Below, piece by piece: positions 1-19,742 of a stretch of 19,997 nucleotides of DNA. The number at the start of each line of letters is the position of its first letter. The stretch's first letter is position 1. The DNA is from a virus. The notes beneath the pieces were generated by a model, which did no database searches, was not told the origin of the DNA, and saw only the letters and a program-made list of their open reading frames with translations. A program made the position numbers and the translations under genes. Location: the UHGV virus genome UHGV-0061455; one strand, 5' to 3'.

Positions 1-1
1 C

Positions 2-322
2 ATGGCTTATCAGTTCCCACTGATGTTACTGGTGATGAAAGCTAAGGAAGGTATAGACGGTAAGCCTAGCGATGATAGGAAGCTGATTATAGATGCAGTT
101 ATGAATATGTCTGCTCTGGGCGGCATCTCTCTTATTGCACCAATCTTTACCGGGGAGAAACCTCGCCACTCATTGACCAGCATGGCGTACATTACCAGCA
201 CCTTAAGCCTGTTACAGCAGGCAGCATCAGGTAATCTGGATGCGCAGTCACTGTCTAGGCAGCTCCCGCTTGTGCAGGAGTTCATGCCTACTCGTGCAAT
301 TATCAATAACTTTGGAGATTAA
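2..322 (+). CDS. Internal virion protein, C-terminal fragment (5' end lies outside the window)
   Basis: ORF open from the window edge and ending 3 nt before the tail fibre gene. Assignment is by synteny only (the gene preceding gp17-like tail fibre in T7-like phages is an internal virion protein); no diagnostic motif seen. Confidence 0.4.
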   Translation: MAYQFPLMLLVMKAKEGIDGKPSDDRKLIIDAVMNMSALGGISLIAPIFTGEKPRHSLTSMAYITSTLSLLQQAASGNLDAQSLSRQLPLVQEFMPTRAIINNFGD

Positions 323-324
323 GA

Positions 325-3030
325 ATGGCCTATAGTTGGGAAGAGCATCTGTATCCCGCAGGGACTACTAGCATCTCAGTGAATATTCAGTACTTAGACC
401 GCTCTTATATCTACCTGTACGTAGATAACGAGGAAGTGCTTGACTATACTTGGGAGAGCGACGTGCGCATCCGGTTGGATGCTGCACTTACTAAAGAGAG
501 TAAGGTACTAATTGTACGCCGTACAGCGGCGCATTACCTGTACATTAACTTCAAGTCAGGTGCTCCGTTTATCTCTGAGAACTTAGATACTCAGAATACT
601 CAGTTCCTGCACCTAGCTCAGGAGATGACGGAAGGTCGTAGTATCGAGGGATTCTACGGCGATATTAATATGAACGGCTTCCGCATCATTAATCTGGCAG
701 CAGGAGAAGAGGCTACAGACGCGATTAATAAGGCGCAGTTAGATGAAGTAGATTCTAAGGTAAAGGCGTTGGAGGGTACCTTTATAGGTCATACTAATAG
801 TTACCCATGGTACACCGTTATTGTGTCTCCTACGAAGATCATTGCACCTCCTTACTCGTTTACTAAAGCAGCTGTATATTTGAACGGAGTATGTCAAACT
901 CCGGGATATTCTTACAGTGTAGATAATAATACCATTACCTTAGCAGAGGAAGTTCCCGCGGGAACGCACGTGTTTGTGCGATTAGGGGAGGATATACTGG
1001 ATGCTACCTACGTCACAGTAGTAACTTACGCAGACCTTATTCAGCGTCTTACAGACCCAGACGGTGCAGTTAACAGTCCTGAACTTCAGGTGGCTAGGTG
1101 GAGAGACAACGGTGATGTTCGAGGCTGGGGAGCTAAGGTAGATGGAGGTGCAAACGACTCAGGCGCATTTAATGCGGTAGCCGGTGCACCTGCTCACGTA
1201 CCTAACGGTACATCCCGATGCAGTCCTGGTGTGTTTTCTATAGCTGGGTTGACCGGAGAAGTGAACTCAAAGCTTAAGCAGGTTGCTCCTGCAGGTAACT
1301 TCCTATCCTTCCGTCAGCCTGACGGGGGACGTATCGCTAACCTAGATATTGAATCTAATAAGGGAGGGGTAGTATCTGCACAAGGTCACCAGATTGACGT
1401 TCAGGATGGACGTAACGTTACTCTGGAAAACCTTAACTTTAAAGAAGCAGAGGGAACTGGATTTTCCATCATCACTTACAGTAATACTCTTCCATACCAA
1501 GAAGGGTTCATTGTAAAGGGTATTCGTGGGAAATACAATACATCTGTAGCAAACGCCGATGCAGGCTGTGTACTGTTAGACCGTAATCGTAAGTCGCTGG
1601 TTGACGGCGTTATTGCAACAGGTTACCCTCAGTTCGGAGCAGTAGAGCTTAAGAGTGATGCTAAGTATAACATCACGTCTAATATTATTGGAGATAACTG
1701 TGAGAGTACAGTTTACTTAGGTACTGAAACAGAGGCTACACCTAACGCCAATATCATCAGTAACATTATCTCAAGCAAGCCTGGGTTCAGCGCTGTAGAG
1801 GTAGGCAGAGGCCGCCACAATTTAATGTCTAATGTGCTGGCTGACTATACAGAGTCTACAGCAACATCAGCACACGGTGTGACTATGACGGGCGAGTCTA
1901 ATGTTGCTGATAACATACTCATGATGGGAAGTACCGGGGTTAACTCCATAGGCGGCGCGCAGGCGGCATATAATGCAAGATTCCGTGGCACTGCAAGGAA
2001 CAACTATGCCTCTATCTTCCCACACTACACCGCAACGGGGGTCGTGACTTTCGAGGGAGGTACTGCACGTAACTTTGTAGAGATTAAACATCCCGGCTCC
2101 CGCTCTAGTATTTTCGCGCAGGCTTCCACAATTACAGATAAGGCGACAATTACCGGGGACGTTAACAGTAACGTAGTGCATGCACCGGCACTTGGTCAGT
2201 ACTTCGGCACCATGTCAGGAACCTTCGATTGGCGTATCAAGGATGTTACTATCCCATCTGGAGTATTTGTTACAGCCGACCGATTCAGGTTCATATGCGA
2301 TGGCGCAGTTTCCATGGCTGTTGGCGGGGGGACTACATCTCAGTTGAAACTGTTCAACTCAGACGGTACGGCACGGACACTATCACTGAATCAAAACCAG
2401 TCTATCAGGTTGGATATAGGTTCAGGGAACTACCTGCAGTTCAGCTCTAATGTCCTGACACCTAGTCAGACTAACGCTTACTCATTAGGTAATGCGTCAA
2501 AGGCTTGGGCAGGAGGCACAACGCAGACCGCGTTTACAGTTCTATCAGATGAACGTGCTAAGAGCAAACCCTTGACGCTTGCTCGAGGCTCGTTAGCCGA
2601 TATTATAACTTCAGACGGGGAGCAGGTATACTCGTCTGACGCGGTTCTAGATGCTTGGGCTGAAGTAGATTTGGTACAGTACCAGCTGCTAGATCGTATT
2701 GAAGCGAAAGGTGAAGAAGGTGCCCGCTGGCATTTTGGTGTTCTCGCCCAACGTGCAGTTGAGGCATTCTCCCGTCATGGTCTGGACGCCCATCGGTTTG
2801 CTTTCCTGTGCTATGATGAGTGGGACGACCAGTACGGTAAAGTTCAGGTTGGTGATGGAGAGTATATAGAGGTACTGGAAACACCAGCAGGTAACCGTTA
2901 CGGCATCCGCTACGAAGAGGCTTTGATTCTTGAAGCAGCACTTCAACGTCGTAACTATAGCAGGTTGGTTGATAGTTTCAATAAGTTGTCATCTCGTATT
3001 GATGCTATTGAGGCGGTCTGCGCACCTTAA
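325..3030 (+). CDS. Tail fibre/tailspike: T7 gp17-like N-terminal anchor, central beta-helix (pectate-lyase-like, putative depolymerase), C-terminal intramolecular chaperone (peptidase S74-like) domain
   Basis: 901-aa ORF; GGAG RBS 7 nt upstream of ATG 325. N-terminal ~150 aa resemble the T7 gp17 adaptor domain. Central region shows repetitive Asn/Gly/Ser-rich pattern typical of right-handed beta-helices. Motif SDERAK near aa 741 resembles the auto-cleavage site of endosialidase-type chaperone domains. Confidence 0.85.
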   Translation: MAYSWEEHLYPAGTTSISVNIQYLDRSYIYLYVDNEEVLDYTWESDVRIRLDAALTKESKVLIVRRTAAHYLYINFKSGAPFISENLDTQNTQFLHLAQEMTEGRSIEGFYGDINMNGFRIINLAAGEEATDAINKAQLDEVDSKVKALEGTFIGHTNSYPWYTVIVSPTKIIAPPYSFTKAAVYLNGVCQTPGYSYSVDNNTITLAEEVPAGTHVFVRLGEDILDATYVTVVTYADLIQRLTDPDGAVNSPELQVARWRDNGDVRGWGAKVDGGANDSGAFNAVAGAPAHVPNGTSRCSPGVFSIAGLTGEVNSKLKQVAPAGNFLSFRQPDGGRIANLDIESNKGGVVSAQGHQIDVQDGRNVTLENLNFKEAEGTGFSIITYSNTLPYQEGFIVKGIRGKYNTSVANADAGCVLLDRNRKSLVDGVIATGYPQFGAVELKSDAKYNITSNIIGDNCESTVYLGTETEATPNANIISNIISSKPGFSAVEVGRGRHNLMSNVLADYTESTATSAHGVTMTGESNVADNILMMGSTGVNSIGGAQAAYNARFRGTARNNYASIFPHYTATGVVTFEGGTARNFVEIKHPGSRSSIFAQASTITDKATITGDVNSNVVHAPALGQYFGTMSGTFDWRIKDVTIPSGVFVTADRFRFICDGAVSMAVGGGTTSQLKLFNSDGTARTLSLNQNQSIRLDIGSGNYLQFSSNVLTPSQTNAYSLGNASKAWAGGTTQTAFTVLSDERAKSKPLTLARGSLADIITSDGEQVYSSDAVLDAWAEVDLVQYQLLDRIEAKGEEGARWHFGVLAQRAVEAFSRHGLDAHRFAFLCYDEWDDQYGKVQVGDGEYIEVLETPAGNRYGIRYEEALILEAALQRRNYSRLVDSFNKLSSRIDAIEAVCAP

Positions 3031-3044
3031 CTTAAGGAAACAAT

Positions 3045-3344
3045 ATGGCTAAGGCGGCTACAAAGAGTCGCCTCGCTGAACTGCATAAGATGTTCACCGA
3101 GGTGCTTATTTCAGAATTGCAGCAGGCTAAGGATGAAGAAATCCCGATGCCTGCTGCAGATAAATCAGTTATCGCTAACTTCCTTAAGAGCAATAACATC
3201 ACAGCGGATGCAGACTCTACGGAGATGCAGGACCTGCGTGATGAGTTCCAAGATGAGTTAGCAGAGAAACGTAAAGCACGGGCGTCTGAATTACTAGCGA
3301 AAGCTGGTGCAGACCCTGAAGACCCTCTAGCAGGTATTCTATAA
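3045..3344 (+). CDS. Putative terminase small subunit (DNA maturase A)
   Basis: 99-aa highly charged, helical-looking protein directly upstream of the large terminase. Assignment by size and position only. Confidence 0.4.
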   Translation: MAKAATKSRLAELHKMFTEVLISELQQAKDEEIPMPAADKSVIANFLKSNNITADADSTEMQDLRDEFQDELAEKRKARASELLAKAGADPEDPLAGIL

Positions 3345-3661
3345 TGAAGGTAAAACTTAACCCTTACCCCGTTACAGTAGATATTGTATTTAACCGGGAC
3401 GATTTCATTAAGCGCTACAAGAAGGTTCGTGGGTATTCCCCTGATATCGAAGGTTGCGGTGGGATGACTTCTTACCTATCGAGCGATGATTTGCTCATAG
3501 GGGTATTCAATTCCAAAGTGGGTACGCTTGTGCATGAACTTAATCATGCCCTGATTCACACTATGGAGTACGTAGGGTTAAGTATTACACCTCAGACATC
3601 CGAGGCGTACTGCTACTTAATGGATAGCGTGCTGGAACAGGCGCTCCCTAAACTCAAATAA
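3344..3661 (+). CDS. Hypothetical protein with HExxH zinc-metallopeptidase-like motif
   Basis: 105-aa ORF whose ATG overlaps the upstream stop (ATAATGA). Contains VHELNHALIH (HExxH plus a third His 4 residues later) and an upstream GCGG segment. Family unknown. Confidence 0.5.
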   Translation: MKVKLNPYPVTVDIVFNRDDFIKRYKKVRGYSPDIEGCGGMTSYLSSDDLLIGVFNSKVGTLVHELNHALIHTMEYVGLSITPQTSEAYCYLMDSVLEQALPKLK

Positions 3662-3672
3662 AGGAAGATACG

Positions 3673-5496
3673 GTGATTAGTCAAACTACACTGAACAGAT
3701 TGAAGCTAATATCTCAACGTACTACAGTAATGAATGACAGTCCCCGTACTATCCCCAAGGACCAGCGCGAGGAAGTGGCGCTTATGATGGCGGTAACTCT
3801 GAAGGATTTTAGAGAGTTCGCATACTTAGGTATGAAGTTCCTAGGTTTTGACCTTACAGAGATGCAGCGCGATATAGCAGACTTCATGCAGCATGGTCCG
3901 CGTAAGCGCATGGTAGCAGCACAGCGTGGTGAAGCTAAGTCTACGCTGGCTGCCCTGTACGCTGTTTGGCGGTTAATCCAGGACCAGAGTACCCGTATTC
4001 TTATTGTATCTGGTGGTGAGAAGCAGGCGTCTGAAGTAGCTACGCTTGTTATCCGTATGATTGAGACGTGGCCTTTACTATGCTACCTCAAGGCTGATAG
4101 TACCCGAGGTGATCGCACATCTTATGAAGGCTACGACGTTCACTGCGACCTTAAGCCTCTGGATAAGTCCGCTAGCATTGCGTGCGTAGGTATTACTGCG
4201 CAGCTGCAGGGTAAGCGTGCTGACCTGCTGATTCCAGATGATATCGAAACAACCAAGAACGGCCTAACGCAGACTATGCGTGAGCAGTTGCTGAACATCT
4301 CTAAAGACTTCGCCGCTATCTGTACTCATGGTGATACCTTGTACTTGGGAACACCTCAGACTAAGGATAGTATCTACAAAACCCTGCCGGGCCGTGGCTT
4401 TGAAGTTCGAGTCTGGCCTGGACGTATACCGAACGCAGAGATGCGTGAACGTTACGGAGAAACCCTAGCCCCGTATATTCAAACCCTCATCGACGCAGGG
4501 TACAAAGAGACTGGCTTCGGGTTAGACGGTACGTTAGGTGAGTGCACAGATAAAGGACGTTACAACGAAGAAGCGCTGATTGAGAAGGAACTGGACTTTG
4601 GTCCTGAAGGTTTCCAACTCCAGTACATGCTTGATACAACTATGTCCGATGCGCTGCGTACCAAGATTAAACTCTCCGATATGCTCGTGTACTCTGGTTC
4701 TCATGACTCTGCCCCAGACCGCTTAAGCTATATTGCTGATAAGCGCTACATGTTCGCAGAGGAGCATGAAGGTATCCGTGGCCAGTTACTGTACCAGCCG
4801 GCTAGCTATGGCGAGCACATGCTCCCGTACCAGCATAAGCTGATGGTAATCGACCCGGCAGGGTGCGGCGGGGATGAAGTGTCTTACGCCTGTGGCGGCG
4901 CAGCTAACTCATACATACACCTGTTCTCTGTAGGCGGCTTCCAAGGTGGCATTAGTACCGAGAACGTGGATAAGTTTATCGACATTGCTATAGAGATGGG
5001 AATCTCTGATATCTTCATCGAAAGCAACATGGGTCACGGTACAGTAGAAATGCTGTTCCAGAACCGCTTGAAGGAGCGTAGGCTTCCGGGTATCGGTGTC
5101 AGAGGCGGTTATAACACGTCTCAGAAGGAGAAGCGTATCATTGATACTATCTCCCCTGTTACGCGTCGTCATCGCTTTGTGGTGCATTCTAGGGCGCTTA
5201 CTGACGATATCCAAAGCTGTATGCAGTACAGTCGTGATAAGCGCTGGTTGTACAGTGCGTTCCAGCAGTTACAAGGAATTACCTATGACCGAGGCAGCCT
5301 TGCTAAGGATGACCGTGCAGACGCAGTGGCTATGCTTACTGCTGAACTGAACGGCTTCTTGGTAGAGGATGAGAAGGTTGTAGCGGAGAAGGAAATCAAG
5401 AAGAAGGCAATGGAGTTCCTAGCGAATCCGCTAGGGTGGACTGATGTAGATACCAGACCTAAGCGGCGAGGCACTGCATCGCGTATGAGTTACTAG
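3673..5496 (+). CDS. Terminase large subunit (T7 gp19-like)
   Basis: 607 aa; GTG start 5 nt after AAGGAAG RBS. Segments ILIVSGGEKQASE, ACVGITAQLQGKRADLLIPDDIE, LYLGTPQT and LMVIDPAGCGGDEVSYACGG align by eye with T7 gp19 ATPase and nuclease motifs. Confidence 0.9.
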   Translation: MISQTTLNRLKLISQRTTVMNDSPRTIPKDQREEVALMMAVTLKDFREFAYLGMKFLGFDLTEMQRDIADFMQHGPRKRMVAAQRGEAKSTLAALYAVWRLIQDQSTRILIVSGGEKQASEVATLVIRMIETWPLLCYLKADSTRGDRTSYEGYDVHCDLKPLDKSASIACVGITAQLQGKRADLLIPDDIETTKNGLTQTMREQLLNISKDFAAICTHGDTLYLGTPQTKDSIYKTLPGRGFEVRVWPGRIPNAEMRERYGETLAPYIQTLIDAGYKETGFGLDGTLGECTDKGRYNEEALIEKELDFGPEGFQLQYMLDTTMSDALRTKIKLSDMLVYSGSHDSAPDRLSYIADKRYMFAEEHEGIRGQLLYQPASYGEHMLPYQHKLMVIDPAGCGGDEVSYACGGAANSYIHLFSVGGFQGGISTENVDKFIDIAIEMGISDIFIESNMGHGTVEMLFQNRLKERRLPGIGVRGGYNTSQKEKRIIDTISPVTRRHRFVVHSRALTDDIQSCMQYSRDKRWLYSAFQQLQGITYDRGSLAKDDRADAVAMLTAELNGFLVEDEKVVAEKEIKKKAMEFLANPLGWTDVDTRPKRRGTASRMSY

Positions 5497-5504
5497 AAGG
5501 GGCA

Positions 5505-5900
5505 ATGGCCTCAATCATAGCAGCTAAGGATATTTCCAAGCAATATGAGATTGTAGGTAAATGCGAAGATACGTTCCGGCTGATAGGGTCTCGCTACCCT
5601 ATCGGCTTCAACGATAAGGCTAACATTGCAGAGAGTACTCTGTGGAACATGTCCTTACTGGCAATCTATCTCAAGGGGGAGGGCTACCCTGAATCCTTTG
5701 CTTCGGAGTACTTCGTCCGTGACGGGGAGCTTCAGGCGGAATTCGTACTATCCTTCCAAGAAGTAATCAACCTCGGCTACCAGCGCCTCAGTTCATGCTA
5801 CGGCAAGTTCGATGAAGCCCCCGGCACTGAGTTCGACGCAGCAATTCAACGTATGCAGGATGCGCTACGCGCAGCTACAGACGATATCAAAGACTATTAA
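5505..5900 (+). CDS. Hypothetical protein
   Basis: 131-aa ORF with GAAGGGG RBS, tightly packed after the terminase; no recognisable motif. Confidence 0.5.
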   Translation: MASIIAAKDISKQYEIVGKCEDTFRLIGSRYPIGFNDKANIAESTLWNMSLLAIYLKGEGYPESFASEYFVRDGELQAEFVLSFQEVINLGYQRLSSCYGKFDEAPGTEFDAAIQRMQDALRAATDDIKDY

Positions 5901-5910
5901 GGAGTTAATC

Positions 5911-6093
5911 ATGGCAGCAGCAAAAGCAACTCAGGCGCAGTTACAGGAACCTCTGCGCACAACTAACATCGTAGGCAAGGACTTGTACCAACTGCTTACT
6001 CAGCCTCAAGGCAAGGAGCAGGTAGGTCCGTCTATTGATGCGCTTATCTCGGCCCTGGAAGCCGCTGTAGCAGCAGTTAAAGCAGCAGCCTAA
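5911..6093 (+). CDS. Hypothetical small protein (Ala/Gln-rich, helical)
   Basis: ATG 5911 preceded by GGAG immediately after the upstream stop. The longer track ORF from 5812 overlaps the preceding gene and lacks an RBS, so the internal start is preferred. Confidence 0.4.
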   Translation: MAAAKATQAQLQEPLRTTNIVGKDLYQLLTQPQGKEQVGPSIDALISALEAAVAAVKAAA

Positions 6094-6506
6094 TGAAGTC
6101 ATTGGTCGCTGGGTTAATCCTCGCTACGGCTCTTACAGGCTGTTCAGCGACCTCTGCATTGACAGGTCTCATTGGCTCTAAGCCAGACCTGTCTGTGCAA
6201 GCTGGCGCAGAGAACACTAAACAAACTGTAGGCCTTAACGGCAAGTCCGACTCCAGCACGGACAACGAGACAACTATTAAAGATTCTAACGTAGGCACGC
6301 TGGATACTTCAACTAAGAAGCAGTCCAGTTCAGTTACTACTGGAACCATTAACACGGAGCGGGTACAGGTCGTAAACAATGACGGTACTAGCATAATTCT
6401 GGCAGGACTGGCAGGTGCAGCGGTTCCAATCGCAATCCTCATCATCGTCCTGTTGTTCCGCAAGCTCGGAAGAACTAAGGACGGGATCGATGAGTCTACC
6501 AATTAA
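6093..6506 (+). CDS. Putative unimolecular spanin (outer-membrane lipoprotein signal plus C-terminal transmembrane anchor)
   Basis: N-terminus MKSLVAGLILATALTGC has a signal peptide with LTGC lipobox; Ser/Thr-rich middle; C-terminal hydrophobic helix IILAGLAGAAVPIAILIIVLLF followed by basic residues. This topology matches T1 gp11-type u-spanins. ATG overlaps the upstream stop (TAATG). Confidence 0.55.
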   Translation: MKSLVAGLILATALTGCSATSALTGLIGSKPDLSVQAGAENTKQTVGLNGKSDSSTDNETTIKDSNVGTLDTSTKKQSSSVTTGTINTERVQVVNNDGTSIILAGLAGAAVPIAILIIVLLFRKLGRTKDGIDESTN

Positions 6507-6738
6507 CGGGGAAACTATCACCCGTGTAGGAACAAACGTATCTGTCGCTACTATGGGTGGCGGATGGATGGCAGACGTAATGTCTTGGAACTGGGGTACA
6601 ATCTCGTTCATCGTCGGTACGGTAATGGCTGTACTGACCTTCGCATGGAACGCGTACTACAAGCACAAAGAGTATAAGCTCAAGGAAAAGGCACTGGAGA
6701 AGGGGCTGGCATACTATAAGCATAAGCAACAAGGTTAA
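6490..6738 (+). CDS. Putative holin (possibly pinholin-like)
   Basis: 82 aa from ATG 6490. One strongly hydrophobic helix GTISFIVGTVMAVLTFAW preceded by a weaker hydrophobic segment, then a highly charged Lys-rich C-terminus. Sits immediately upstream of the endolysin. Confidence 0.45.
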   Translation: MSLPINGETITRVGTNVSVATMGGGWMADVMSWNWGTISFIVGTVMAVLTFAWNAYYKHKEYKLKEKALEKGLAYYKHKQQG

Positions 6739-6784
6739 AGCTGCACTGGCAGGGGCAACCCTGCTGGGCGGCAGTATCACTGCT

Positions 6785-7258
6785 GTGATTCAGCATAACG
6801 AGGGGTTGTCCCTGACGGCCTACAAAGATTCAGCCGGTGTACCTACCATCTGTTATGGTGAGACTAAAGGCGTACAGATAGGCCAGAAACGCACGCTAAC
6901 GCAATGTCAGGAGCAACTGATACGTTCGGCAGAGGGGCACGCTAAGGCGCTTGACGGCCTTCCTATGACGCTTACAGACGTACAGTTACTTGGCGCTCTG
7001 GACCTGACCTATAACATCGGTATCTCTGGATTCAAGAACAGTACAGTAAAGCGCAAGCTAATGCAAGGCGATACTAAAGGTGCCGCTCAGGCTGTCTTAG
7101 CGTGGCGCTACATCACCGTTAAAGGTAAGAAGTACGACTGTAGTATAGAAGGTAATAAGGTCTGCTACGGGCTCTGGAAGCGCCGTTTGTGGGAATCCCA
7201 AGCTATTGGCAACGAATTTAAATCAGTGCAAGCAGCATTAGCTGCTATTCCTAAGTAA
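6785..7258 (+). CDS. Endolysin, T4-lysozyme-like muramidase (glycoside hydrolase family 24), probably SAR-type with an N-terminal extension upstream of the listed start
   Basis: EGLSLTAYKDSAGVPTICYGET has the E-x8-D-x5-T catalytic spacing of T4/lambda/P22 lysozymes. The frame is open upstream to 6638 and encodes KVKAALAGATLLGGSITAVI, a Gly/Ala-rich hydrophobic stretch resembling a signal-arrest-release domain, but with no ATG/GTG/TTG in frame. Coordinates given are the conservative GTG start. Confidence 0.8.
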   Translation: MIQHNEGLSLTAYKDSAGVPTICYGETKGVQIGQKRTLTQCQEQLIRSAEGHAKALDGLPMTLTDVQLLGALDLTYNIGISGFKNSTVKRKLMQGDTKGAAQAVLAWRYITVKGKKYDCSIEGNKVCYGLWKRRLWESQAIGNEFKSVQAALAAIPK

Positions 7259-7267
7259 GGATTAGGT

Positions 7268-9013
7268 ATGACCCTAGTAAAGTTAGTTGAAGTAGAACTG
7301 GATACCTTGCACGTAGACCACTCTGGGTTAGTGCTTAATACGTACTTGAATGACAACGGGTACAACCTGCGTCAATGGGTAGACTCTGATGCAGCAGATG
7401 CACGAGAAGGAATGCAAGCTGCTATTGACTATATTGAGTCAGTTGGTGGAGGTACGTTAATTATCCCAGATGGTACTTGGATTCTTAACAGTATCAGTAC
7501 TGGCCCAGTGTCCGGGCACAGTGGACTCATTCAGCTTAAGAACAATGTAAGCATTAAGCTGGACGGTGTAGTTAAAGTAGGCCCTGCCTTAGCTAATAGT
7601 TCCTTCCAGGTCTTCGTCGGCTTCACTGATGCCAATCCAGCTAACTCTGGTAACTTGGACAACTGTCACATCTTTGGTGAAGGTAGCATTGACTTTGGAG
7701 GTTATGATTTTGCTGACTCAGGTCACTTGCGCAATGGTATCGCATTTGGTAAGGGGTATAACTGTTCAGTAGATGGCATTACGTTCATTAACGGTGACAT
7801 TACATGGGCTATAACACTTGGGTGGAACGGATATGGTTCAGACTCTTATGTCCGCAACTGCCGCTTCATTAACCTCATCCAAAGTAACGTGAACCGCGAC
7901 CATAGTACAGTGTACGTTAACTGCCCGTTCAGTGGGGTCACTGACTGCACCTTCCGCGCAAGCTCTGCGCGTGCCAAGGTAATAGCATGCACTGTGGAGT
8001 TACATCAACACGACACCTACTACCGCAATAGCAGCATCTCAGGATATACGCGTGGGTGCTATGTAGCGCTGCATGGTTCTGAGTCTGTTGGTGCAGGTAC
8101 GTACCTGTATAATGCCGAAGTCTCTGGGGTCATCGGAGATATCTCTGGTCAGGCCGTTATATTAGCTGCAGGCCCAGACGCTATAGCTACTACGCACATT
8201 CATGGCCTTACGGTATCTAACTGCCGGTTCACTGCTGGGAACTACCCGGGCATGTGCAGCTTCATTGACTTCTTCCAAGATGGTAACTCTGACTCAAGTC
8301 AGTACCTTATCAATCACGTTACGGTTAAGGGGTGCAGCTTCATCGTAGACCGCAGCCGTTCTCTTAGTGCAGCCATTACCCTGAACGGGAGTATTCAAGG
8401 TATCACCTTCCAGGATAACTTCTTCGATGTTAAGCAGGCTATGGTATCGGAACTCCCTAGCGGACGCACTGTGCAGTTAGAGCGCTTTAACTGGGATGCT
8501 AGCAATATCATCGGCGGCGATAACACTGGTACTCGTACTGGCCTGAACCTGTTTGAGACTCGGCGAGTATCCAGTATGTTGCGCTGTAACATTCAACTGC
8601 ATATGCGTCAGCCTAGTGTGGACCTGTACAGCTTTATGTACTTCCGTCCCGGTATCTCCTTCAGTGAGTGTACTATAGAGGTTCTACCTTACAACTGGGG
8701 TACTAGTTCAGGTAATGCACTGTTCTTTGAAGAGGGTGGCGTTCCTCCCCTGAACGTACATTGCAGCTTCCCTAAACAAGTATCTGTAACTCTCGCATCT
8801 GGTTCGAACGTGCAACGCGCTACGGTATCAGGTAACTACGCTTGGGTTGCCCGTGCAGACGCTCTGGATAGACGTGGTATTTCAGGTCAGTTCGATGCCC
8901 CTGCTAGTTACGCAGGTAGCAGCAACGGTCAGTTAACAGGCTTAGGTTGGCAGCTTGATGGGCTTCAACATACGTATGACCACAACGTGCTTCTTACAGG
9001 GCGCAGTAACTAA
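7268..9013 (+). CDS. Second tailspike, beta-helix polysaccharide depolymerase (pectate-lyase-3-like), no T7-type anchor domain
   Basis: 581 aa; AAGGA RBS. N-terminus DAREGMQAAIDYIESVGGGTLIIPDGTWIL resembles the start of pectate-lyase-fold phage depolymerases. Internal repeats (NCHIFGEGSIDF, NCRFINLIQSN, VTDCTFRAS, SNCRFTAG, KGCSFIVD) are typical beta-helix rungs. Confidence 0.75.
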   Translation: MTLVKLVEVELDTLHVDHSGLVLNTYLNDNGYNLRQWVDSDAADAREGMQAAIDYIESVGGGTLIIPDGTWILNSISTGPVSGHSGLIQLKNNVSIKLDGVVKVGPALANSSFQVFVGFTDANPANSGNLDNCHIFGEGSIDFGGYDFADSGHLRNGIAFGKGYNCSVDGITFINGDITWAITLGWNGYGSDSYVRNCRFINLIQSNVNRDHSTVYVNCPFSGVTDCTFRASSARAKVIACTVELHQHDTYYRNSSISGYTRGCYVALHGSESVGAGTYLYNAEVSGVIGDISGQAVILAAGPDAIATTHIHGLTVSNCRFTAGNYPGMCSFIDFFQDGNSDSSQYLINHVTVKGCSFIVDRSRSLSAAITLNGSIQGITFQDNFFDVKQAMVSELPSGRTVQLERFNWDASNIIGGDNTGTRTGLNLFETRRVSSMLRCNIQLHMRQPSVDLYSFMYFRPGISFSECTIEVLPYNWGTSSGNALFFEEGGVPPLNVHCSFPKQVSVTLASGSNVQRATVSGNYAWVARADALDRRGISGQFDAPASYAGSSNGQLTGLGWQLDGLQHTYDHNVLLTGRSN

Positions 9014-9466
9014 GTAATAAACCTGTGGGTGCCTGAGGGTGCCCTGGGATTTCCTGGGATTGCACGTGTAAACGTACACCTAGAAAATATTATACTCACG
9101 CGAGGCCCTCCCTCACCCGACCAAGGCGTCAATCCCCCCATGGGGTAGGCCTCTGGGAATTCACAGGGTGGGGTAGTGGGAGAGGGTGCTAATCCCTCTG
9201 CGTATACTGTGTGCTGCGCTAGACGCTCTGTATCGCTCTGTATCGCTCTGTATCGCTCTGTGAGTCTATAGCAGTACCTAAGGGACACTTCGTGTCTCTA
9301 CGCTGTACAAGGCAAGCCTCTGTGCTTCTCTGTGCTCTCTCTTATGAGGGCAGGAGGGGGCGCATGCTTGCCTATTTTTATGCACGCTGTGCAGTACTGT
9401 ATGCCGCTGCTATACCTCTGTGTATGCGCAGTAGCTTACCTCTTTTGCCTCTAGGCTATGCAATGC
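9014..9466. other. Non-coding genome-terminus or terminal-repeat-like region
   Basis: About 450 nt with no credible ORF between the last late gene and the first early promoter. Contains tandem short repeats, CTCTGT-type motifs, a CCCCATGGGG palindrome and C-rich/G-rich inverted arms. T7-like genomes have short repeat arrays next to their terminal repeats. Confidence 0.5.
9224..9261. repeat. Tandem repeat, about 3.8 copies of 10-bp unit CGCTCTGTAT
   Basis: Read directly: cgctctgtat cgctctgtat cgctctgtat cgctctgt. Related CTCTGTG motifs recur at about 9318-9345 and 9415. Confidence 0.9.
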
Positions 9467-9495
9467 TTGACGCAGGGTTAGCGCTGTGATATGCT
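9467..9495 (+). promoter_or_regulatory. Candidate sigma70-type early promoter P0 (TTGACG-N17-TATGCT)
   Basis: -35 TTGACG at 9467-9472, 17-nt spacer, -10 TATGCT at 9490-9495; about 100 nt upstream of the first early gene. Weaker -10 than the other promoters. Confidence 0.35.
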
Positions 9496-9601: not shown

Positions 9602-10345
9602 ATGCATACAATGCAAGAACGTAATCTTAAGAAGAGTAGTAAGCGTATAGACGGTAAGGTACGCAGTGGTTGGATAGATGTAGATACAGGGGAGTTCTTC
9701 AACACTAAAGCAGAGGCGAATGTAATGCGTAAGATGCGTAGTGATAAGAAGCCTGTAGCTAGGCGTAATGTAATAGCAGTAGCTGATGCAACGCTTAGAA
9801 TGAAGGATGTAGTGCTAGCTTGGGCATTCAGTAATGATTTCCAGCTTAAACATTACAACTTAATGAATGAGTACATGGAAGGGCGCAGTAAGGGCTATGC
9901 AGGGCTTAAGACTATGCAGCGTGCTGGTACTGTACTGGAAGCAGTTAACGTAGCTACAGCGTGGTACAAGCAGTATGACGCTAGGAAGGATAAACGCTAT
10001 CTGGATGATGCACTCTACACCAATCCTACATGGTGTGAGGATAGGGATTGGGTAGACTCTGAGCCATTGGATGAGCTTAGCTTAGAGATAAATGCATTAC
10101 TGGACTCTAGACATGCTGAGTTCTTAGCGAATGAGCCTAAACCTGAGCTTACTGCTAAGGAGTATGAGCGTAGTATACTCAGTAGGGATAAAGCTACTTA
10201 TATACACAGTAAGGGTGCTGTAACAGTGTATGAGGAGAAGCAGGAGAGTAAGAAAGGTTTAACTGAGCATCAACCTAGATGGTCACAGGATGAGTTGTTT
10301 GATTGGACGCAGCGTAACACTACACAACAATACATTAGGGGATAA
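9602..10345 (+). CDS. Early protein, function unknown
   Basis: 247-aa ORF, visibly more A+T-rich than the late genes. ATG 9611 has better RBS spacing (AAGGA 9 nt upstream) than ATG 9602, so the true start may be 9611. Confidence 0.6.
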   Translation: MHTMQERNLKKSSKRIDGKVRSGWIDVDTGEFFNTKAEANVMRKMRSDKKPVARRNVIAVADATLRMKDVVLAWAFSNDFQLKHYNLMNEYMEGRSKGYAGLKTMQRAGTVLEAVNVATAWYKQYDARKDKRYLDDALYTNPTWCEDRDWVDSEPLDELSLEINALLDSRHAEFLANEPKPELTAKEYERSILSRDKATYIHSKGAVTVYEEKQESKKGLTEHQPRWSQDELFDWTQRNTTQQYIRG

Positions 10346-10355
10346 GAGAATACAC

Positions 10356-10532
10356 ATGACTAAAGCAAACTGGCAGGGCTACAAGACACATGCTGATATG
10401 TGGGAGTTTCATAAGCGTATTAATGAGTATGCGTATCAGCGGTTAAAGGCAGAGCATGAGTTAGCAGAGCTAAGGCTCAAGGCGTACAGGGAGGGTAGTT
10501 TTGAATCTGAAGGGGATTGGAAGAGGTATTAA
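10356..10532 (+). CDS. Hypothetical small early protein
   Basis: 58 aa from ATG 10356 with AAGAG RBS-like sequence; same frame as track ORF 10290-10532, whose 5' part overlaps the upstream gene. Confidence 0.4.
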   Translation: MTKANWQGYKTHADMWEFHKRINEYAYQRLKAEHELAELRLKAYREGSFESEGDWKRY

Positions 10533-10576: not shown

Positions 10577-10605
10577 TTGACTTCCCTGATTTAAGCAGTT
10601 ATAGT
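10577..10605 (+). promoter_or_regulatory. Strong sigma70-type early promoter P1 (TTGACT-N17-TATAGT with A+T-rich upstream element)
   Basis: -35 TTGACT 10577-10582, exact 17-nt spacer, -10 TATAGT 10600-10605, preceded by aaattaatttaaaatagttg. Same architecture as P2 and P3a. Confidence 0.7.
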
Positions 10606-10629
10606 TCAAGCATAGTAAGGAGATGCAAA

Positions 10630-10770
10630 GGCAGCTGAAGGGGTAGCGGATAACCAAGACTACCCAGCCTAAAAGGACTTGAAGGACGTCGGTAACTGCA
10701 CCGCCTCTGCATCGAGGGAAGCAATGAGCTGCTAAGAGACAAAAGCAGCGCTAAGATGAATGTTCTTAGT
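10630..10770 (+). ncRNA. Conserved structured leader element, copy R1 of 3
   Basis: Begins about 18 nt after the predicted P1 start site. Conserved blocks GGCAGCTGAAGG, ATAACCAAGAC, AGCCTA-AAGGA, CTAAGAGACAA and GCTAAG are shared with R2 and R3. Hairpin A: GGGTAG (10641-10646) pairs with CTACCC (10660-10665) around a 13-nt loop. Hairpin C: CTAAG (10751-10755) pairs with CTTAG (10765-10769). The shared reading frame is broken by a stop in this copy. Confidence 0.5.
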
Positions 10771-10812
10771 TAAGCGTTACATCCTGTAGCGCATACTTAA
10801 GAGGATTTAAAT

Positions 10813-11127
10813 ATGAAGGCTTTAACTATCGTAATCTCCACGCTACTGATGACTGGATGCGCTACTAAGCAGTACCCACAAGCTACTGACCTTACTTTAC
10901 AGGAGCAGTCAGTGTTTGAATGCAAGGACGTACAGGTAGAATTAGCTAAGGCTTACAGTCAGAAGCTGAAGATTGATGAGACGGCAGGCTTCGATGCCGA
11001 AACTATCAGCGGATTCATGCTGGACTTTGGTATTGGTAATGCAATGGCTAAATCTAAGGCGTACGCTCAGGTTAACGGGCGTATCTCTAAACTGGAAGAA
11101 CTGAAGAAGGTGAGATGCAATGCGTAA
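10813..11127 (+). CDS. Early lipoprotein (signal peptide II with LMTGC lipobox)
   Basis: 104 aa; N-terminus MKALTIVISTLLMTGC is a classical lipoprotein signal. First gene after P1 and R1, with AAGAGG RBS. Confidence 0.7.
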   Translation: MKALTIVISTLLMTGCATKQYPQATDLTLQEQSVFECKDVQVELAKAYSQKLKIDETAGFDAETISGFMLDFGIGNAMAKSKAYAQVNGRISKLEELKKVRCNA

Positions 11128-11371
11128 CTTTAAATCTGAATTAAAAATCTGGTTCTCCGCTGCTGCTGTAGCTACTGCGCTGATGTTCTCCGTTAAGGGC
11201 GCTCAGGCTGCCCCTAACAGCATAGAACTGTGTAATTGGGGTAAGTGGGCGTGGCAGCAGAACATTAAGCTAGACGCGCTTGTAGACGCCTTAAACAGCG
11301 TTGAGGCTATGCCCTACGATGATAAGCTGATTGTTGTGCGCTGCTTTGTTGAATCTATGGAGACTATGTAA
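11120..11371 (+). CDS. Early secreted/periplasmic small protein (Sec signal peptide)
   Basis: 83 aa; N-terminus MRNFKSELKIWFSAAAVATALMFSVKGAQA-AP has a basic n-region, hydrophobic core and AQA cleavage motif. Start overlaps the end of the lipoprotein gene, suggesting translational coupling. Confidence 0.6.
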   Translation: MRNFKSELKIWFSAAAVATALMFSVKGAQAAPNSIELCNWGKWAWQQNIKLDALVDALNSVEAMPYDDKLIVVRCFVESMETM

Positions 11372-11547
11372 TGTTTGATTTAACTACTACGAACGAAGTG
11401 CAGACGATGACTAGCCGTGAGATTGCCGAGTTAACTGGTAAGATGCACACCCATGTAATTGCTGATATTCGTAAGATGCTGGCAGAGATTGGAGGAGAAA
11501 CGAAATTCCGCTCGTCCTACATATCGGCTCAAAATAAATTAAAATAA
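11371..11547 (+). CDS. Short Rha-like protein (phage regulatory protein Rha N-terminal DNA-binding domain only)
   Basis: 58-aa ORF below the track's size cutoff; ATG overlaps the upstream stop (TAATG). TSREIAELTGKMHTHVIADIRKM matches the signature N-terminus of Rha/antirepressor-type proteins. Its last codons are the A+T-rich upstream element of P2. Confidence 0.5.
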   Translation: MFDLTTTNEVQTMTSREIAELTGKMHTHVIADIRKMLAEIGGETKFRSSYISAQNKLK

Positions 11548-11550
11548 GTG

Positions 11551-11579
11551 TTGACGACGTACAGGGAAGTGCGTATAGT
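11551..11579 (+). promoter_or_regulatory. Strong sigma70-type early promoter P2 (TTGACG-N17-TATAGT)
   Basis: -35 TTGACG 11551-11556, 17-nt spacer, -10 TATAGT 11574-11579, preceded by aaaataaattaaaataagtg. Confidence 0.7.
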
Positions 11580-11636
11580 TCATTACATCGGGAGGCGAGA
11601 GGCACTAAGCACCTCCTCCCGGAAAGGAGAAGTTAA

Positions 11637-11775
11637 GGCAGCTGAAGGTAACGATGATAGCCAAGACGTTACAGCCTACAAGGAAGTGAACGAAATCCGA
11701 ACCCTACGGTCCCTGCAATCGGGAGAACTGGATGAGAAGCTAAGAGACAAGAGCTTCGCTAAGTGACTACTTAGT
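11637..11775 (+). ncRNA. Conserved structured leader element, copy R2 of 3
   Basis: Same conserved blocks as R1 and R3. Hairpin A: GTAACG (11648-11653) pairs with CGTTAC (11667-11672) around a 13-nt loop atgatagccaaga. Hairpin C: CTAAG (11759-11763) pairs with CTTAG (11770-11774). The 43 nt between element and ATG, including the AAGAGG RBS, are homologous to those after R1. Confidence 0.5.
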
Positions 11776-11817
11776 TAAGCGTCGTACAGTACGGCGCAGA
11801 ATTAAGAGGTTAAAGAA

Positions 11818-19375: not shown

Positions 19376-19404
19376 TTGACATGGCAAGGACGCCTAGGTA
19401 TAGT
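19376..19404 (+). promoter_or_regulatory. Strong sigma70-type promoter P3a (TTGACA-N17-TATAGT)
   Basis: -35 TTGACA 19376-19381, 17-nt spacer, -10 TATAGT 19399-19404, preceded by taattaaattagttg; immediately after the DNA polymerase stop. Confidence 0.7.
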
Positions 19405-19491
19405 AAGCACATCAACGAGGCACGGAGCCTACCAGAAACGGTCAGTAGACGCAGCGTCATACGAAGAGCTGATAAGTTGATAAGAAACAGA

Positions 19492-19520
19492 TTGACAGGC
19501 AGTAACGAAGTAGATAATAT
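19492..19520 (+). promoter_or_regulatory. Candidate tandem promoter P3b (TTGACA-N17-TAATAT)
   Basis: -35 TTGACA 19492-19497, 17-nt spacer, -10 TAATAT 19515-19520. Predicted start lies about 15 nt upstream of R3, matching the P1-to-R1 spacing. Confidence 0.4.
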
Positions 19521-19541
19521 ACACATCAAGGAAGCAGTACT

Positions 19542-19682
19542 GGCAACTGAAGGTAGCGCTGATAACCAAGACGCTATAGCCAACAAGGAAGTGAACGCCC
19601 TCGGCTACGTCGCCGTCCCTGTATCGGGAGAAGACATGAGAGTCTAGGAGAAATAAGACTCGCTAACTGAAGTAGAGTTAGT
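19542..19682 (+). ncRNA. Conserved structured leader element, copy R3 of 3
   Basis: Same conserved blocks (GGCAACTGAAGG, ATAACCAAGAC, AGCCAACAAGGAAGTGAACG). Hairpin A: GTAGCG (19553-19558) pairs with CGCTAT (19572-19577, one G-U) around a 13-nt loop. Hairpin C: CTAAC (19663-19667) pairs with GTTAG (19677-19681), a compensatory change relative to R1 and R2. Confidence 0.5.
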
Positions 19683-19742
19683 GATGCAGTCTTAAGAGAT
19701 TGCAACCTTAACTTTATTCACAGTATTAACAGGAGGTAGTAA

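What the first reader, a model, noticed from the sequence alone, without database searches (positions are those of the whole stretch)
10813..11371. Early-expressed exported protein pair: lipoprotein plus periplasmic protein
The first two genes after promoter P1 encode a lipoprotein (LMTGC lipobox) and a Sec-secreted small protein, translationally coupled. Early phage proteins sent to the envelope are typically superinfection-exclusion or receptor-masking factors (T5 Llp and T4 Imm/Sp are precedents) or modifiers of envelope processes. For a depolymerase-carrying phage this is a plausible exclusion module, but the proteins have no recognisable family.
Basis: partly seen in the sequence, partly recalled or inferred. 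Interest (0 to 1): 0.55.

Follow-up and report, generated by a model that had tools for sequence, protein, structure and literature searches.

The report
Two exported early phage proteins
A lytic coliphage makes an outer-membrane lipoprotein and a tiny periplasmic protein at the very start of infection; both are real genes of unknown function, and the lipoprotein belongs to an unnamed family carried by plasmids, prophages and phages, so it is a cheap candidate to test as a new envelope-protection or exclusion factor.

Summary
ORF1 (10813-11127) has a canonical lipobox (LLMTG|C16, Ala at +2). ORF2 (11120-11371) has a classical Sec signal peptide (…GAQA|AP). The two overlap by 8 nt and sit directly behind a sigma70-like promoter, a structured leader and an RBS. 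Both are under purifying selection (dN/dS about 0.11-0.12).

"No recognisable family" is only partly right. ORF1 matches phrog_13472 and phrog_10370 and belongs to an unnamed proteobacterial lipoprotein family (294 clusters; no Pfam, NCBIfam, PADLOC or PDB match). Its members occur in these places:
- tiny ColE1-like plasmids, where they are essentially the only cargo
- an ICE
- prophage immunity regions, co-transcribed with the repressor in Pseudomonas phage Fc02 ("e4")
- a T4-like Aeromonas phage
- bacterial chromosomes

ORF2 (phrog_19819) is a 53-aa, two-cysteine, three-helix protein found only in lytic coliphages (Slopekvirinae and Drexlerviridae).

The two are not an obligate pair. In the closest relatives ORF1's slot holds a 33-aa hydrophobic peptide instead.

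Superinfection exclusion or envelope protection is the best-supported reading for ORF1, from context only. Nothing shows it directly, and neither protein is homologous to Llp, Cor, Imm or Sp. Moderately interesting and easy to test.

The parts
   Evidence: 10 of 12 consensus matches. The same sequence is conserved in relatives S.Kent 1-2-1 and P64441.
10606..10812 (+). structured 5' leader, ending in the RBS AAGAGGA (10799-10805) 7 nt before the ORF1 ATG; copy 1 of 3 in the window
   Evidence: Further copies lie at 11580-11817 and about 19525-19720. RNAalifold on 10 copies gives 26 pairs, 15 of them with compensatory changes. No Rfam match.
10813..11127 (+). ORF1: 104-aa prolipoprotein. Signal peptide aa 1-15, lipid-attachment Cys16 (codon 10858-10860), Ala +2. 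Mature 89 aa with conserved Cys37 and Cys102 and the DFGIGN motif (aa 71-76).
11120..11127 (+). 8-nt overlap between the ORF2 start codon and the ORF1 stop codon (translational coupling)
   Evidence: Identical in L019.
11120..11371 (+). ORF2: 83-aa precursor. Signal peptide aa 1-30 (11120-11209), cleavage AQA|AP. Mature 53 aa, acidic, three helices, invariant Cys38 and Cys75, CNWGKW motif.
11371..11547 (+). ORF3 (context): 58-aa Rha-type N-terminal DNA-binding fragment, start overlapping the ORF2 stop (ATGTAATG). It is the third coupled gene of the unit and is truncated relative to the 221-251 aa proteins of relatives.
11551..11579 (+). next sigma70-like promoter (TTGACG-17-TATAGT), which bounds the three-gene unit

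Best explanation
Two independent small proteins are made from the first positions of a host-RNAP early transcription unit and are exported across the inner membrane. They act on the cell envelope from the periplasmic side.

ORF1 is processed as a lipoprotein. [quoted passage not shown] Its folded part is predicted to be an antiparallel helical hairpin, probably closed at its base by a Cys37-Cys102 disulfide, with the invariant DFGIGN motif near the tip. It is a horizontally acquired cassette from an unnamed lipoprotein family that mobile elements carry as accessory cargo.

ORF2 is cleaved by signal peptidase I to a 53-aa acidic three-helix protein, probably stapled by a Cys38-Cys75 disulfide. 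It is a long-standing accessory early gene of this phage lineage.

The most likely role of ORF1 is protection or closure of the infected or host cell's envelope. That would mean excluding later-arriving phages at or after adsorption, or blocking another envelope-directed attack, by binding a conserved outer-membrane or periplasmic component. This works like T5 Llp without being related to it. ORF2 most likely binds a periplasmic target, either of incoming phage ejection machinery or of the host. That is Spackle-like in logic only.

Shown: the genes, the export signals, purifying selection, family membership, genomic contexts and non-obligate pairing. Inferred: localisation, disulfides, early timing, and the whole functional claim.
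For: - Export signals and coupling.
- Purifying selection, omega 0.11-0.12.
- Position directly on the conserved promoter-leader-RBS cassette.
- Phage identity (Slopekvirinae, phiKMV-like, early region upstream of primase, helicase and DNA polymerase).
- ORF1 relatives sit in classic accessory, immunity-type or cargo places:
  - Directly downstream of, and co-transcribed with, the repressor in Pseudomonas phage Fc02 lysogens (Fc02_20 = 'e4'; PMC9936078).
  - Convergent to an S24 CI-type repressor in a temperate phage contig.
  - Beside the integrase of a Citrobacter prophage.
  - After the TraI relaxase, next to a NACHT NTPase, in an ICE.
  - Essentially the only cargo of 2.0-2.6 kb ColE1-like plasmids, at 96% identity or more across E. 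coli, Salmonella, Enterobacter and Shigella.
  - In T4-like Aeromonas phage 65.
- The lipid anchor plus a terminus-stapling Cys pair parallels T5 Llp (Cys1 lipid, Cys11-Cys58; PMC9586334).
- ORF2 is restricted to lytic coliphage contigs. In Drexlerviridae it is again the first or second gene of an early operon, with signal peptide and Cys pair conserved.
- ORF2 is sometimes truncated (L014; P0038, P0055), as expected for a dispensable accessory function.
Against: - There is no functional datum for any member of either family. In Fc02 and Ps56 the exclusion phenotypes were assigned to other genes (olg1, gene 10, genes 9/10), and e4 is stated to have no assigned function.
- There is no homology to Llp, Cor, Imm, Sp, SieA, TraT or TrbK. 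Only signal-peptide-level matches were seen.
- There is no PADLOC hit.
- ORF1-family genes also occur as stable chromosomal singletons in Pantoea and Morganella, and in distant phyla, between housekeeping genes. This suggests a general envelope function that need not concern phages.
- Known receptor-masking lipoproteins are receptor-specific, whereas this family spans hosts with unrelated receptors.
- The structure models are only moderately confident (pLDDT 64 and 75), and fold searches returned only generic helical matches.
Confidence: 0.42

Rival explanations
1. ORF1 is an orphan immunity-type lipoprotein. It neutralises a periplasm-acting toxin or hydrolase, such as a T6SS peptidoglycan amidase or glycosidase effector, a bacteriocin, or a lysozyme or lytic transglycosylase. 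Mobile elements carry it because it protects the host cell. The phage uses it to keep the infected cell intact until lysis.
For: - It is a small periplasm-facing lipoprotein with a conserved disulfide pair and one invariant surface motif (DFGIGN), kept across very different hosts. That fits a conserved enzymatic target better than a variable receptor.
- It is scattered as singletons in chromosomes, plasmids, ICEs and prophages without a fixed partner.
- In Citrobacter it lies next to an NlpC/P60-like plus DUF3828 gene pair that resembles an effector-immunity pair.
Against: - No cognate toxin gene is consistently adjacent.
- There is no similarity to known immunity or lysozyme-inhibitor families (Pfam and NCBIfam empty for 70 members).
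- The benefit during a lytic cycle of a few tens of minutes is unclear.
- The Citrobacter adjacency is a single case.
Confidence: 0.2
2. The proteins are host-takeover or anti-defence factors for the phage's own infection. They would inhibit or rewire a host envelope process, for example an envelope stress sensor, a periplasmic protease, outer-membrane vesicle shedding, or a membrane-acting abortive-infection effector. They would not exclude other phages.
For: - First position in an early unit with a strong promoter, leader and RBS.
- The slot upstream of ORF2 is a variable 'envelope slot' holding different small membrane proteins in different relatives: a 33-aa peptide, a 112-aa TM protein, a 77-aa TM protein. 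This looks like host-adaptive accessory content.
- ORF2 is conserved in two unrelated lytic coliphage families that share hosts but not virion machinery. That favours a host target.
Against: - ORF1 relatives are expressed from prophages in the lysogenic state and from cryptic plasmids, where host takeover makes little sense.
- No known target exists, and there is no similarity to known anti-defence proteins.
Confidence: 0.2
3. ORF2, with the neighbouring small membrane peptide in relatives, is a lysis-timing regulator. It would be a periplasmic antiholin or sensor of the T4 RI type that delays lysis when superinfection is sensed.
For: - It is a small exported helical protein made early.
- Its N-terminal hydrophobic segment is rich in Ala, Ser and Thr, as in releasable signal-anchor domains.
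- In relatives it is paired with a tiny membrane peptide.
Against: - It has a canonical A-x-A cleavage site conserved in all homologues.
- It lies about 5 kb from the lysis cassette, on the other side of the genome end (5505-7258).
- It does not match the RI or RIII PHROGs.
- Lysis inhibition is not known in phiKMV-like or T1-like phages (own knowledge).
Confidence: 0.06
4. ORF1 is an outer-membrane spanin subunit (Rz1-like) or another lysis lipoprotein.
For: It is a small lipoprotein. There are weak PHROG matches to Rz-like spanins (E 0.1-0.2).
Against: - Those matches cover only the signal peptide.
- ORF1 is helical and not Pro-rich, has no i-spanin partner, and lies in the early unit.
- The phage has its own lysis cassette with spanin, holin and endolysin at 5505-7258.
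- Relatives of ORF1 stand alone on plasmids and chromosomes.
Confidence: 0.02

Closest known systems
T5 Llp, and the related Cor lipoproteins of T1, phi80 and N15
   Same: Llp is a small lipoprotein made early by a lytic phage. It is anchored in the inner leaflet of the outer membrane and faces the periplasm, and a disulfide ties the ends of its folded part (Llp Cys11-Cys58; PMC9586334). ORF1 has the same layout: lipid Cys16, Ala +2, and conserved Cys37 and Cys102 at the two ends of the folded domain.
   Different: - No sequence relationship. The Cor PHROG matches at E 0.09 over the signal peptide only, and there is no Llp match.
- ORF1 is longer (89 aa mature versus 61 aa) and is predicted to be all-helical.
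- Its family spans bacteria and elements with unrelated receptors, so a FhuA-type specific target is unlikely.
- No exclusion phenotype is known.
T4 Spackle (Sp, gp61.3) and Imm
   Same: These are early, exported small proteins of a lytic phage that act in the periplasm or inner membrane against incoming phage DNA ejection (own knowledge). ORF2 is likewise a small, helical, disulfide-containing periplasmic protein. In relatives it is paired with a tiny membrane peptide.
   Different: - At 53 aa, ORF2 is smaller.
- Its target is unknown.
phrog_13472 / phrog_10370 lipoproteins: Aeromonas phage 65 65p327; Pseudomonas B3-like phage 'e4' (Fc02_20, JBD25 gp22); ColE1-like plasmid protein WP_000718044
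   Same: These are true homologues of ORF1, at 32-47% identity over the whole domain. They share the invariant Cys, CATKQ and DFGIGN motifs and the second Cys pair.
   Different: - The Pseudomonas versions carry a C-terminal extension of about 60 aa and are expressed from the lysogenic repressor transcript.
- The plasmid and chromosomal versions are not phage genes.
- None has an assigned function.
Lambda Bor / Iss and F TraT (lipoprotein morons and plasmid surface-exclusion lipoproteins)
   Same: These are outer-membrane lipoproteins carried by prophages and plasmids as accessory genes that change envelope properties (own knowledge). The ORF1 family has a comparable distribution.
   Different: There is no Pfam match to the Bor or TraT families in ORF1 or in 70 relatives. 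Serum resistance would be irrelevant to a lytic phage.

Membership tests
Bacterial lipoproteins (Lgt/LspA/Lnt substrates) | N-terminal signal peptide ending in a lipobox [LVI..][ASTVI][GAS]C, with a basic residue near the N-terminus | tested here: met
   MKALTIVISTLLMTG|C16 fits the PROSITE-type rule. 104 of 122 family members fit it, and the Cys is invariant.
Bacterial lipoproteins (Lgt/LspA/Lnt substrates) | Actual lipidation and globomycin-sensitive processing; outer-membrane sorting | not testable with these tools
   Only the sorting rule could be applied. Ala at +2 (117 of 122 members; none of the 122 has Asp) predicts outer-membrane targeting in Enterobacteriaceae.
Sec/SPase I secreted proteins (ORF2) | Signal peptide with n, h and c regions and small residues at -3 and -1 | tested here: met
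   R2/K5/K9, then a 16-residue hydrophobic core, then A28-Q-A30|A31. The N-terminal part diverges faster than the mature part (omega 0.65 versus 0.12 against P64441). All homologues keep an equivalent site. No dedicated predictor was available.
phrog_13472 / phrog_10370 (phage lipoprotein, function unknown) | Full-length profile match | tested here: met
   E 6.2e-22 (residues 3-102 of 104) and 3.8e-14. tblastn found homologues in 30 phage records.
phrog_19819 (unknown function) | Profile match of the ORF2 mature domain | tested here: met
   E 3.8e-8, residues 30-78. BFVD hits to Drexlerviridae proteins have probability 1.0.
Llp / Cor superinfection-exclusion lipoproteins | Sequence or profile homology to Llp or Cor | tested here: not met
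   Cor phrog_1119 matches at E 0.09, residues 1-42 only (signal peptide). There is no Llp family hit.
Llp / Cor superinfection-exclusion lipoproteins | Binds and inactivates the phage's outer-membrane receptor (FhuA) | not testable with these tools
   The receptor of this phage is unknown. No complex prediction was available.
T4 Spackle / Imm | Homology in sequence or fold | tested here: not met
   [not shown]
o-spanin (Rz1-like) | Lipoprotein gene embedded in or next to an i-spanin gene in the lysis cassette; short Pro-rich mature part | tested here: not met
   ORF1 is in the early unit, is helical, and has no i-spanin neighbour. The lysis genes lie at 5505-7258.
Known anti-phage defence systems (PADLOC-DB 2.0) | Match to any defence protein model | tested here: not met
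   No hits at E of 1 or below for ORF1, ORF2, the Citrobacter homologue or the JBD25 homologue.
Pfam / NCBIfam curated families | Any curated family covering the ORF1 domain | tested here: not met
   ORF1 alone and 70 diverse members gave only lipid-attachment-site or signal-peptide level matches. The PDB sequence search was empty.

The most novel reading that the evidence does not exclude
The ORF1 family is a previously unrecognised single-gene envelope shield that does not depend on a particular receptor. It would be a periplasm-facing outer-membrane lipoprotein whose conserved DFGIGN hairpin blocks a step common to many invaders, such as formation of the trans-envelope DNA-ejection channel or the action of a peptidoglycan-cutting enzyme. 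That would explain why the smallest plasmids, ICEs, prophage immunity regions and even lytic phages all carry it. ORF2 would be a second, lytic-phage-specific periplasmic blocker.
Probability: 0.2. Interest if true: 0.75.

Novelty: new variant of a known kind. Interest (0 to 1): 0.5.

Why it matters
Envelope-level exclusion is one of the least catalogued layers of phage-phage and phage-host conflict. Only a handful of proteins are understood (Llp, Cor, Imm, Sp, SieA, Sim).

ORF1 belongs to a compact lipoprotein domain of about 90 aa that has no Pfam or NCBIfam model. It has been picked up by 2-kb ColE1-like plasmids, an ICE, temperate phages (next to their repressors), a T4-like phage and this phiKMV-like phage. 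A gene that is the only cargo of a minimal plasmid is very likely selectable. If it confers resistance to phages or toxins, it would matter in three ways:
- It would be a new single-gene defence.
- It would be a marker to watch for in phage-therapy targets, since it already circulates in clinical E. coli, Salmonella and Enterobacter plasmids.
- It would be a handle on a conserved envelope step.

ORF2 gives a second small, easily synthesised periplasmic binder, shared by two unrelated lytic coliphage families.

Tried and rejected
- Pfam, NCBIfam, PADLOC and PDB sequence searches on ORF1 and ORF2 found nothing beyond signal-peptide-level matches. The Pfam and NCBIfam scans were repeated on 70 diverse ORF1-family members with the same result.
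- BFVD was informative only for ORF2, where it found Drexlerviridae homologues.
- I looked for a conserved gene partner of the ORF1 family in 75 bacterial genome loci. There is none. The only synteny is within a genus (Pantoea, Morganella), between unrelated housekeeping genes.
- I looked for the relatives' 33-aa hydrophobic peptide elsewhere in the window and did not find it.
- E. coli complete genomes have no DNA-level match to the two genes.
- IMG/VR yielded only one related locus for ORF2.
- Literature:
  - No paper names the plasmid protein accessions.
  - The Shigella pSFxv_2 paper calls it only 'a lipoprotein'.
  - The Fc02 paper calls the homologue 'e4', with no assigned function.
  - The Ps56 exclusion paper (PMC7375383) is not held.
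  - One literature search was badly specified and gave nothing useful.
- Spanin, Bor/TraT-type and Cor/Llp membership were considered and rejected (see the membership tests).
- I checked whether ORF1 looks compositionally foreign. It does not: GC is 0.45 against 0.47 for the window.
Full report
CONTEXT

The window is a circularly permuted piece of a phage of about 43 kb in the subfamily Slopekvirinae (phiKMV-like Autographivirales).
- Its nearest database relatives are unannotated wastewater contigs (S.Kent 1-2-1, ECO104 4-5-2) and Escherichia phages vB_EcoP_P64441 and vB_EcoP_PAS7.
- Late genes fill 1-9013:
  - a 901-aa tail protein with a T7 tail-fibre N-terminal domain and an endosialidase-chaperone C-terminal domain
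  - the terminase
  - the lysis genes
  - a second, 581-aa spike protein
- The early region starts after about 9450 and runs into primase, helicase and DNA polymerase.
Early timing is inferred from position and promoter type.

THE OBSERVATION

It is confirmed.
- ORF1 (10813-11127, 104 aa) starts MKALTIVISTLLMTG|C16ATKQ. It has one basic residue, an 11-residue hydrophobic core and a lipobox that satisfies the PROSITE-type rule.
- ORF2 (11120-11371, 83 aa) starts MRNFKSELKIWFSAAAVATALMFSVKGAQA|APNS. This is a textbook n, h and c signal peptide with A-x-A at -3 and -1.
- The ORF2 ATG lies 8 nt inside ORF1 (GTGAGATGCAATGCGTAA), behind a GGTGAG Shine-Dalgarno.
- ORF2 in turn overlaps the start of a third gene (ATGTAATG), a 58-aa Rha-type DNA-binding fragment.
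- A TTGACT-17-TATAGT site lies at 10577-10605, and no + strand ORF separates it from ORF1.
- Both genes are under purifying selection. Against a second phage contig (L019) with the same arrangement and the same 8-nt overlap, ORF1 has dN/dS 0.11 (dS 0.53) and ORF2 has 0.12 (dS 1.1).
- Ten ORF1 variants at 90% identity or more exist on contigs of up to 43 kb. Several of these contig lengths coincide with those of contigs carrying ORF2 homologues, which suggests that the arrangement recurs in a subclade.

ORF1 IS A MEMBER OF A LARGE UNNAMED FAMILY

- An exhaustive profile search found 294 clusters (50% identity representatives) at E of 1e-3 or below, 188 of them at 1e-10 or below.
- The domain is about 90 aa. 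It comprises an invariant lipid Cys followed by A-T-K-Q, a second invariant Cys (C37), the motif D-F-G-I-G-N (71-76), and a third Cys (C102) at the C-terminal end.
- Among 122 members with the N-terminus present:
  - 104 pass the lipobox rule
  - 117 have Ala at +2, which predicts outer-membrane sorting in enterobacteria
  - 105 have exactly two further Cys
- AlphaFold2 (pLDDT 64, moderate) predicts an antiparallel hairpin of two long helices (37-57 and 72-101). C37 and C102 sit at its open end, and the DFGIGN motif starts the second helix. A disulfide closing the hairpin is therefore plausible but inferred.
- Some members add Pro/Ala-rich tails or extra Cys-containing C-terminal regions.
- No Pfam, NCBIfam, PADLOC or PDB entry covers the domain, even when 70 diverse members are scanned.

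WHERE ORF1 RELATIVES LIVE

This is the most informative result.
1. Pseudomonas B3-like transposable phages (Fc02, Ps56, JBD25 and others). The homologue lies immediately downstream of the repressor gene. [quoted passage not shown]
2. A temperate phage contig, where it lies convergent to an S24 CI-type repressor.
3. A Citrobacter prophage, next to the integrase and beside an NlpC/P60-like plus DUF3828 pair and a toxin-antitoxin pair.
4. An ICE, just after the TraI relaxase and before a NACHT NTPase and an integrase.
5. 73 plasmids, nearly all small ColE1-like replicons of 2.0-13.9 kb in E. coli, Salmonella, Enterobacter, Shigella and Citrobacter.
   - The protein is 96% identical or more across them.
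   - In the 2.0-2.6 kb plasmids it is essentially the only cargo besides Rop.
   - The Shigella serotype-converting plasmid pSFxv_2 also carries it, described only as 'a lipoprotein' (PMC3458804).
6. T4-like Aeromonas phage 65.
7. Bacterial chromosomes: stable singletons in Pantoea and Morganella and scattered copies in Alpha-, Beta-, Gamma- and Deltaproteobacteria and beyond. They lie between unrelated housekeeping genes and have no conserved neighbour.

The family therefore works alone. It is repeatedly captured by mobile elements as accessory cargo, and it is expressed when the element is resident.

ORF2 IS A DIFFERENT KIND OF GENE

- It matches phrog_19819.
- Its 82 database relatives all come from phage-sized contigs.
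- Within Slopekvirinae coliphages the mature 53 aa are strongly conserved (invariant E-x-C-N-W-G-K-W and a C-terminal Cys). The signal peptide drifts (omega 0.65 versus 0.12 against P64441).
- Distant homologues at about 30-35% identity occur in Drexlerviridae siphoviruses (AugustePiccard bas01_0063, MM01_00069, AHS24, Ec_L1). They have the same signal peptide plus two-Cys layout and are again the first or second gene of an early operon.
- A few natural copies are truncated (L014, P0038, P0055), so the gene is dispensable at least sometimes.

NOT AN OBLIGATE PAIR

- In the closest relative (S.Kent 1-2-1) the promoter, leader and RBS are almost identical to the window up to the start codon. There, a 33-aa hydrophobic peptide (…PFLVIYALIKLFS) replaces ORF1, and the sequences rejoin at ORF2.
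- PAS7 has the same peptide. P64441 has a 112-aa TM protein plus the peptide. An IMG/VR relative has other small TM proteins.
- L019 has a longer peptide-bearing protein, then ORF1, then ORF2.
- The window has no copy of the peptide.
- So the slot upstream of ORF2 is a variable 'small envelope protein' slot, and ORF1 is a cassette inserted or substituted there.
- Conversely, none of the ORF1 relatives elsewhere has an ORF2-like neighbour.

MECHANISM

Shown: two translationally coupled, selected genes with export signals, at the most favoured expression position of an early unit.

Inferred:
- ORF2 is released into the periplasm.
- Both are oxidised by DsbA.

Functional reading:
- For ORF1, contexts such as 'next to the repressor', 'only cargo of a minimal plasmid' and 'ICE cargo beside a defence-type NTPase' are where exclusion and host-protection genes are typically found.
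- The architecture (lipid anchor plus a terminus-stapling Cys pair) parallels T5 Llp, which binds the periplasmic face of FhuA (PMC9586334).
- I therefore rank envelope protection or superinfection exclusion first (about 0.4).
- I would expect a conserved target rather than a specific receptor, because the same motif is kept in hosts as different as Pseudomonas, Aeromonas, Pantoea and Caulobacter.
- The main rivals are an orphan-immunity role against periplasm-acting toxins or hydrolases, and a host-takeover or anti-defence role. A lysis-timing role for ORF2 and a spanin role for ORF1 are unlikely.
- There is no direct functional evidence for any member. In the B3-like phages, exclusion was mapped to other genes.

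COMPARISON AND NOVELTY

ORF1 and ORF2 work, at most, like Llp/Cor and Sp/Imm. They are not members of those families, because the homology tests failed. They are members of PHROGs with no known function. I class the finding as a new variant of a known kind: early exported phage proteins and mobile-element lipoprotein cargo. The breadth of the ORF1 family and its presence on minimal plasmids make it a good, cheap experimental target.

SIDE OBSERVATION

Each of three sigma70-consensus promoters in the window (10577, 11551, about 19493) is followed by a homologous leader of about 200 nt.
- The leader has four hairpins, and 15 of 26 predicted pairs show compensatory changes across ten copies from six phages.
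- It ends in a conserved RBS.
- There is no Rfam match.
- ORF1 is the gene fused to the first of these cassettes.

Noticed in passing
window 10606-10812, 11580-11817, about 19525-19720 (promoters at 10577-10605, 11551-11579, about 19493-19521): Three copies of a structured leader of about 200 nt, each directly downstream of a sigma70-consensus promoter and ending in a conserved RBS (CTTAAGAGGATTT). RNAalifold on 10 copies from 6 phages gives 4 hairpins and 26 pairs, 15 with compensatory double changes. No Rfam family matches. This could be a processing site, a stabiliser or an antitermination RNA. The spurious ORFs 11548-11766 and 19381-19647 lie inside it.
   Followed up: partly
window 11371-11547: A Rha-type DNA-binding gene is cut to 58 aa (N-terminal Phage_pRha part only), exactly where the second promoter-leader cassette begins. 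Relatives encode 221-251 aa proteins here (P64441, PAS7, S.Kent).
   Followed up: partly
L017 2889-2990; L002 1273-1374; L001 11067-11168; L019 3627-3872 (C-terminal part): A conserved hydrophobic peptide of about 33 aa (…PFLAIYGLIxL..) sits directly upstream of ORF2 in relatives. It is absent from the window, where ORF1 takes its place. It may be ORF2's usual membrane partner.
   Followed up: partly
plasmids, e.g. NZ_CP038611.1 (L096 1676-1993), NZ_CP081781.1 (L097), NC_017320.1 pSFxv_2 (L095 5571-5888): An ORF1-family lipoprotein (WP_000718044, WP_000718045, WP_058673115; about 46% identical to ORF1) is essentially the only cargo of 2.0-2.6 kb ColE1-like plasmids. It is 96% conserved or more across 68 small plasmids of E. 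coli, Salmonella, Enterobacter and Shigella.
   Followed up: partly
window 9224-9261 and 9429-9495: A 10-nt tandem repeat (CGCTCTGTAT, about 4 copies) lies in the non-coding stretch between the late and early regions, possibly near the physical genome end. A 19-nt element (CAGTAGCTTACCTCTTTTG) is repeated upstream of both the 9467 and the 10577 promoter-like sites. This suggests a third early promoter at 9467-9495, ahead of genes 9602-10532.
   Followed up: no
window 325-3030 and 7268-9013: There are two receptor-binding or spike-type genes. One is a 901-aa protein with a T7 tail-fibre N-terminal domain and an endosialidase-chaperone (Peptidase_S74) C-terminal domain. The other is a 581-aa protein with Phage_spike_2 and a weak, sub-threshold match to the HK620 tailspike C-terminal domain. 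In P64441 the first position holds an endo-N-acetylneuraminidase, so the spikes are swapped between relatives.
   Followed up: partly
L014 3001-3210; proteins P0038, P0055: Some natural ORF2 copies are truncated or frameshifted (69-76 aa, losing the last helix and the second Cys). ORF2 is therefore dispensable in at least some phages.
   Followed up: no
phage records OR847174, OR848645, OR850875 and others: The closest database relatives are labelled 'Listeria phage' or 'Salmonella phage' (UNVERIFIED_ORG, wastewater enrichments), yet they are nearly identical to coliphage-type Slopekvirinae contigs. The host labels of these records look unreliable.
   Followed up: no
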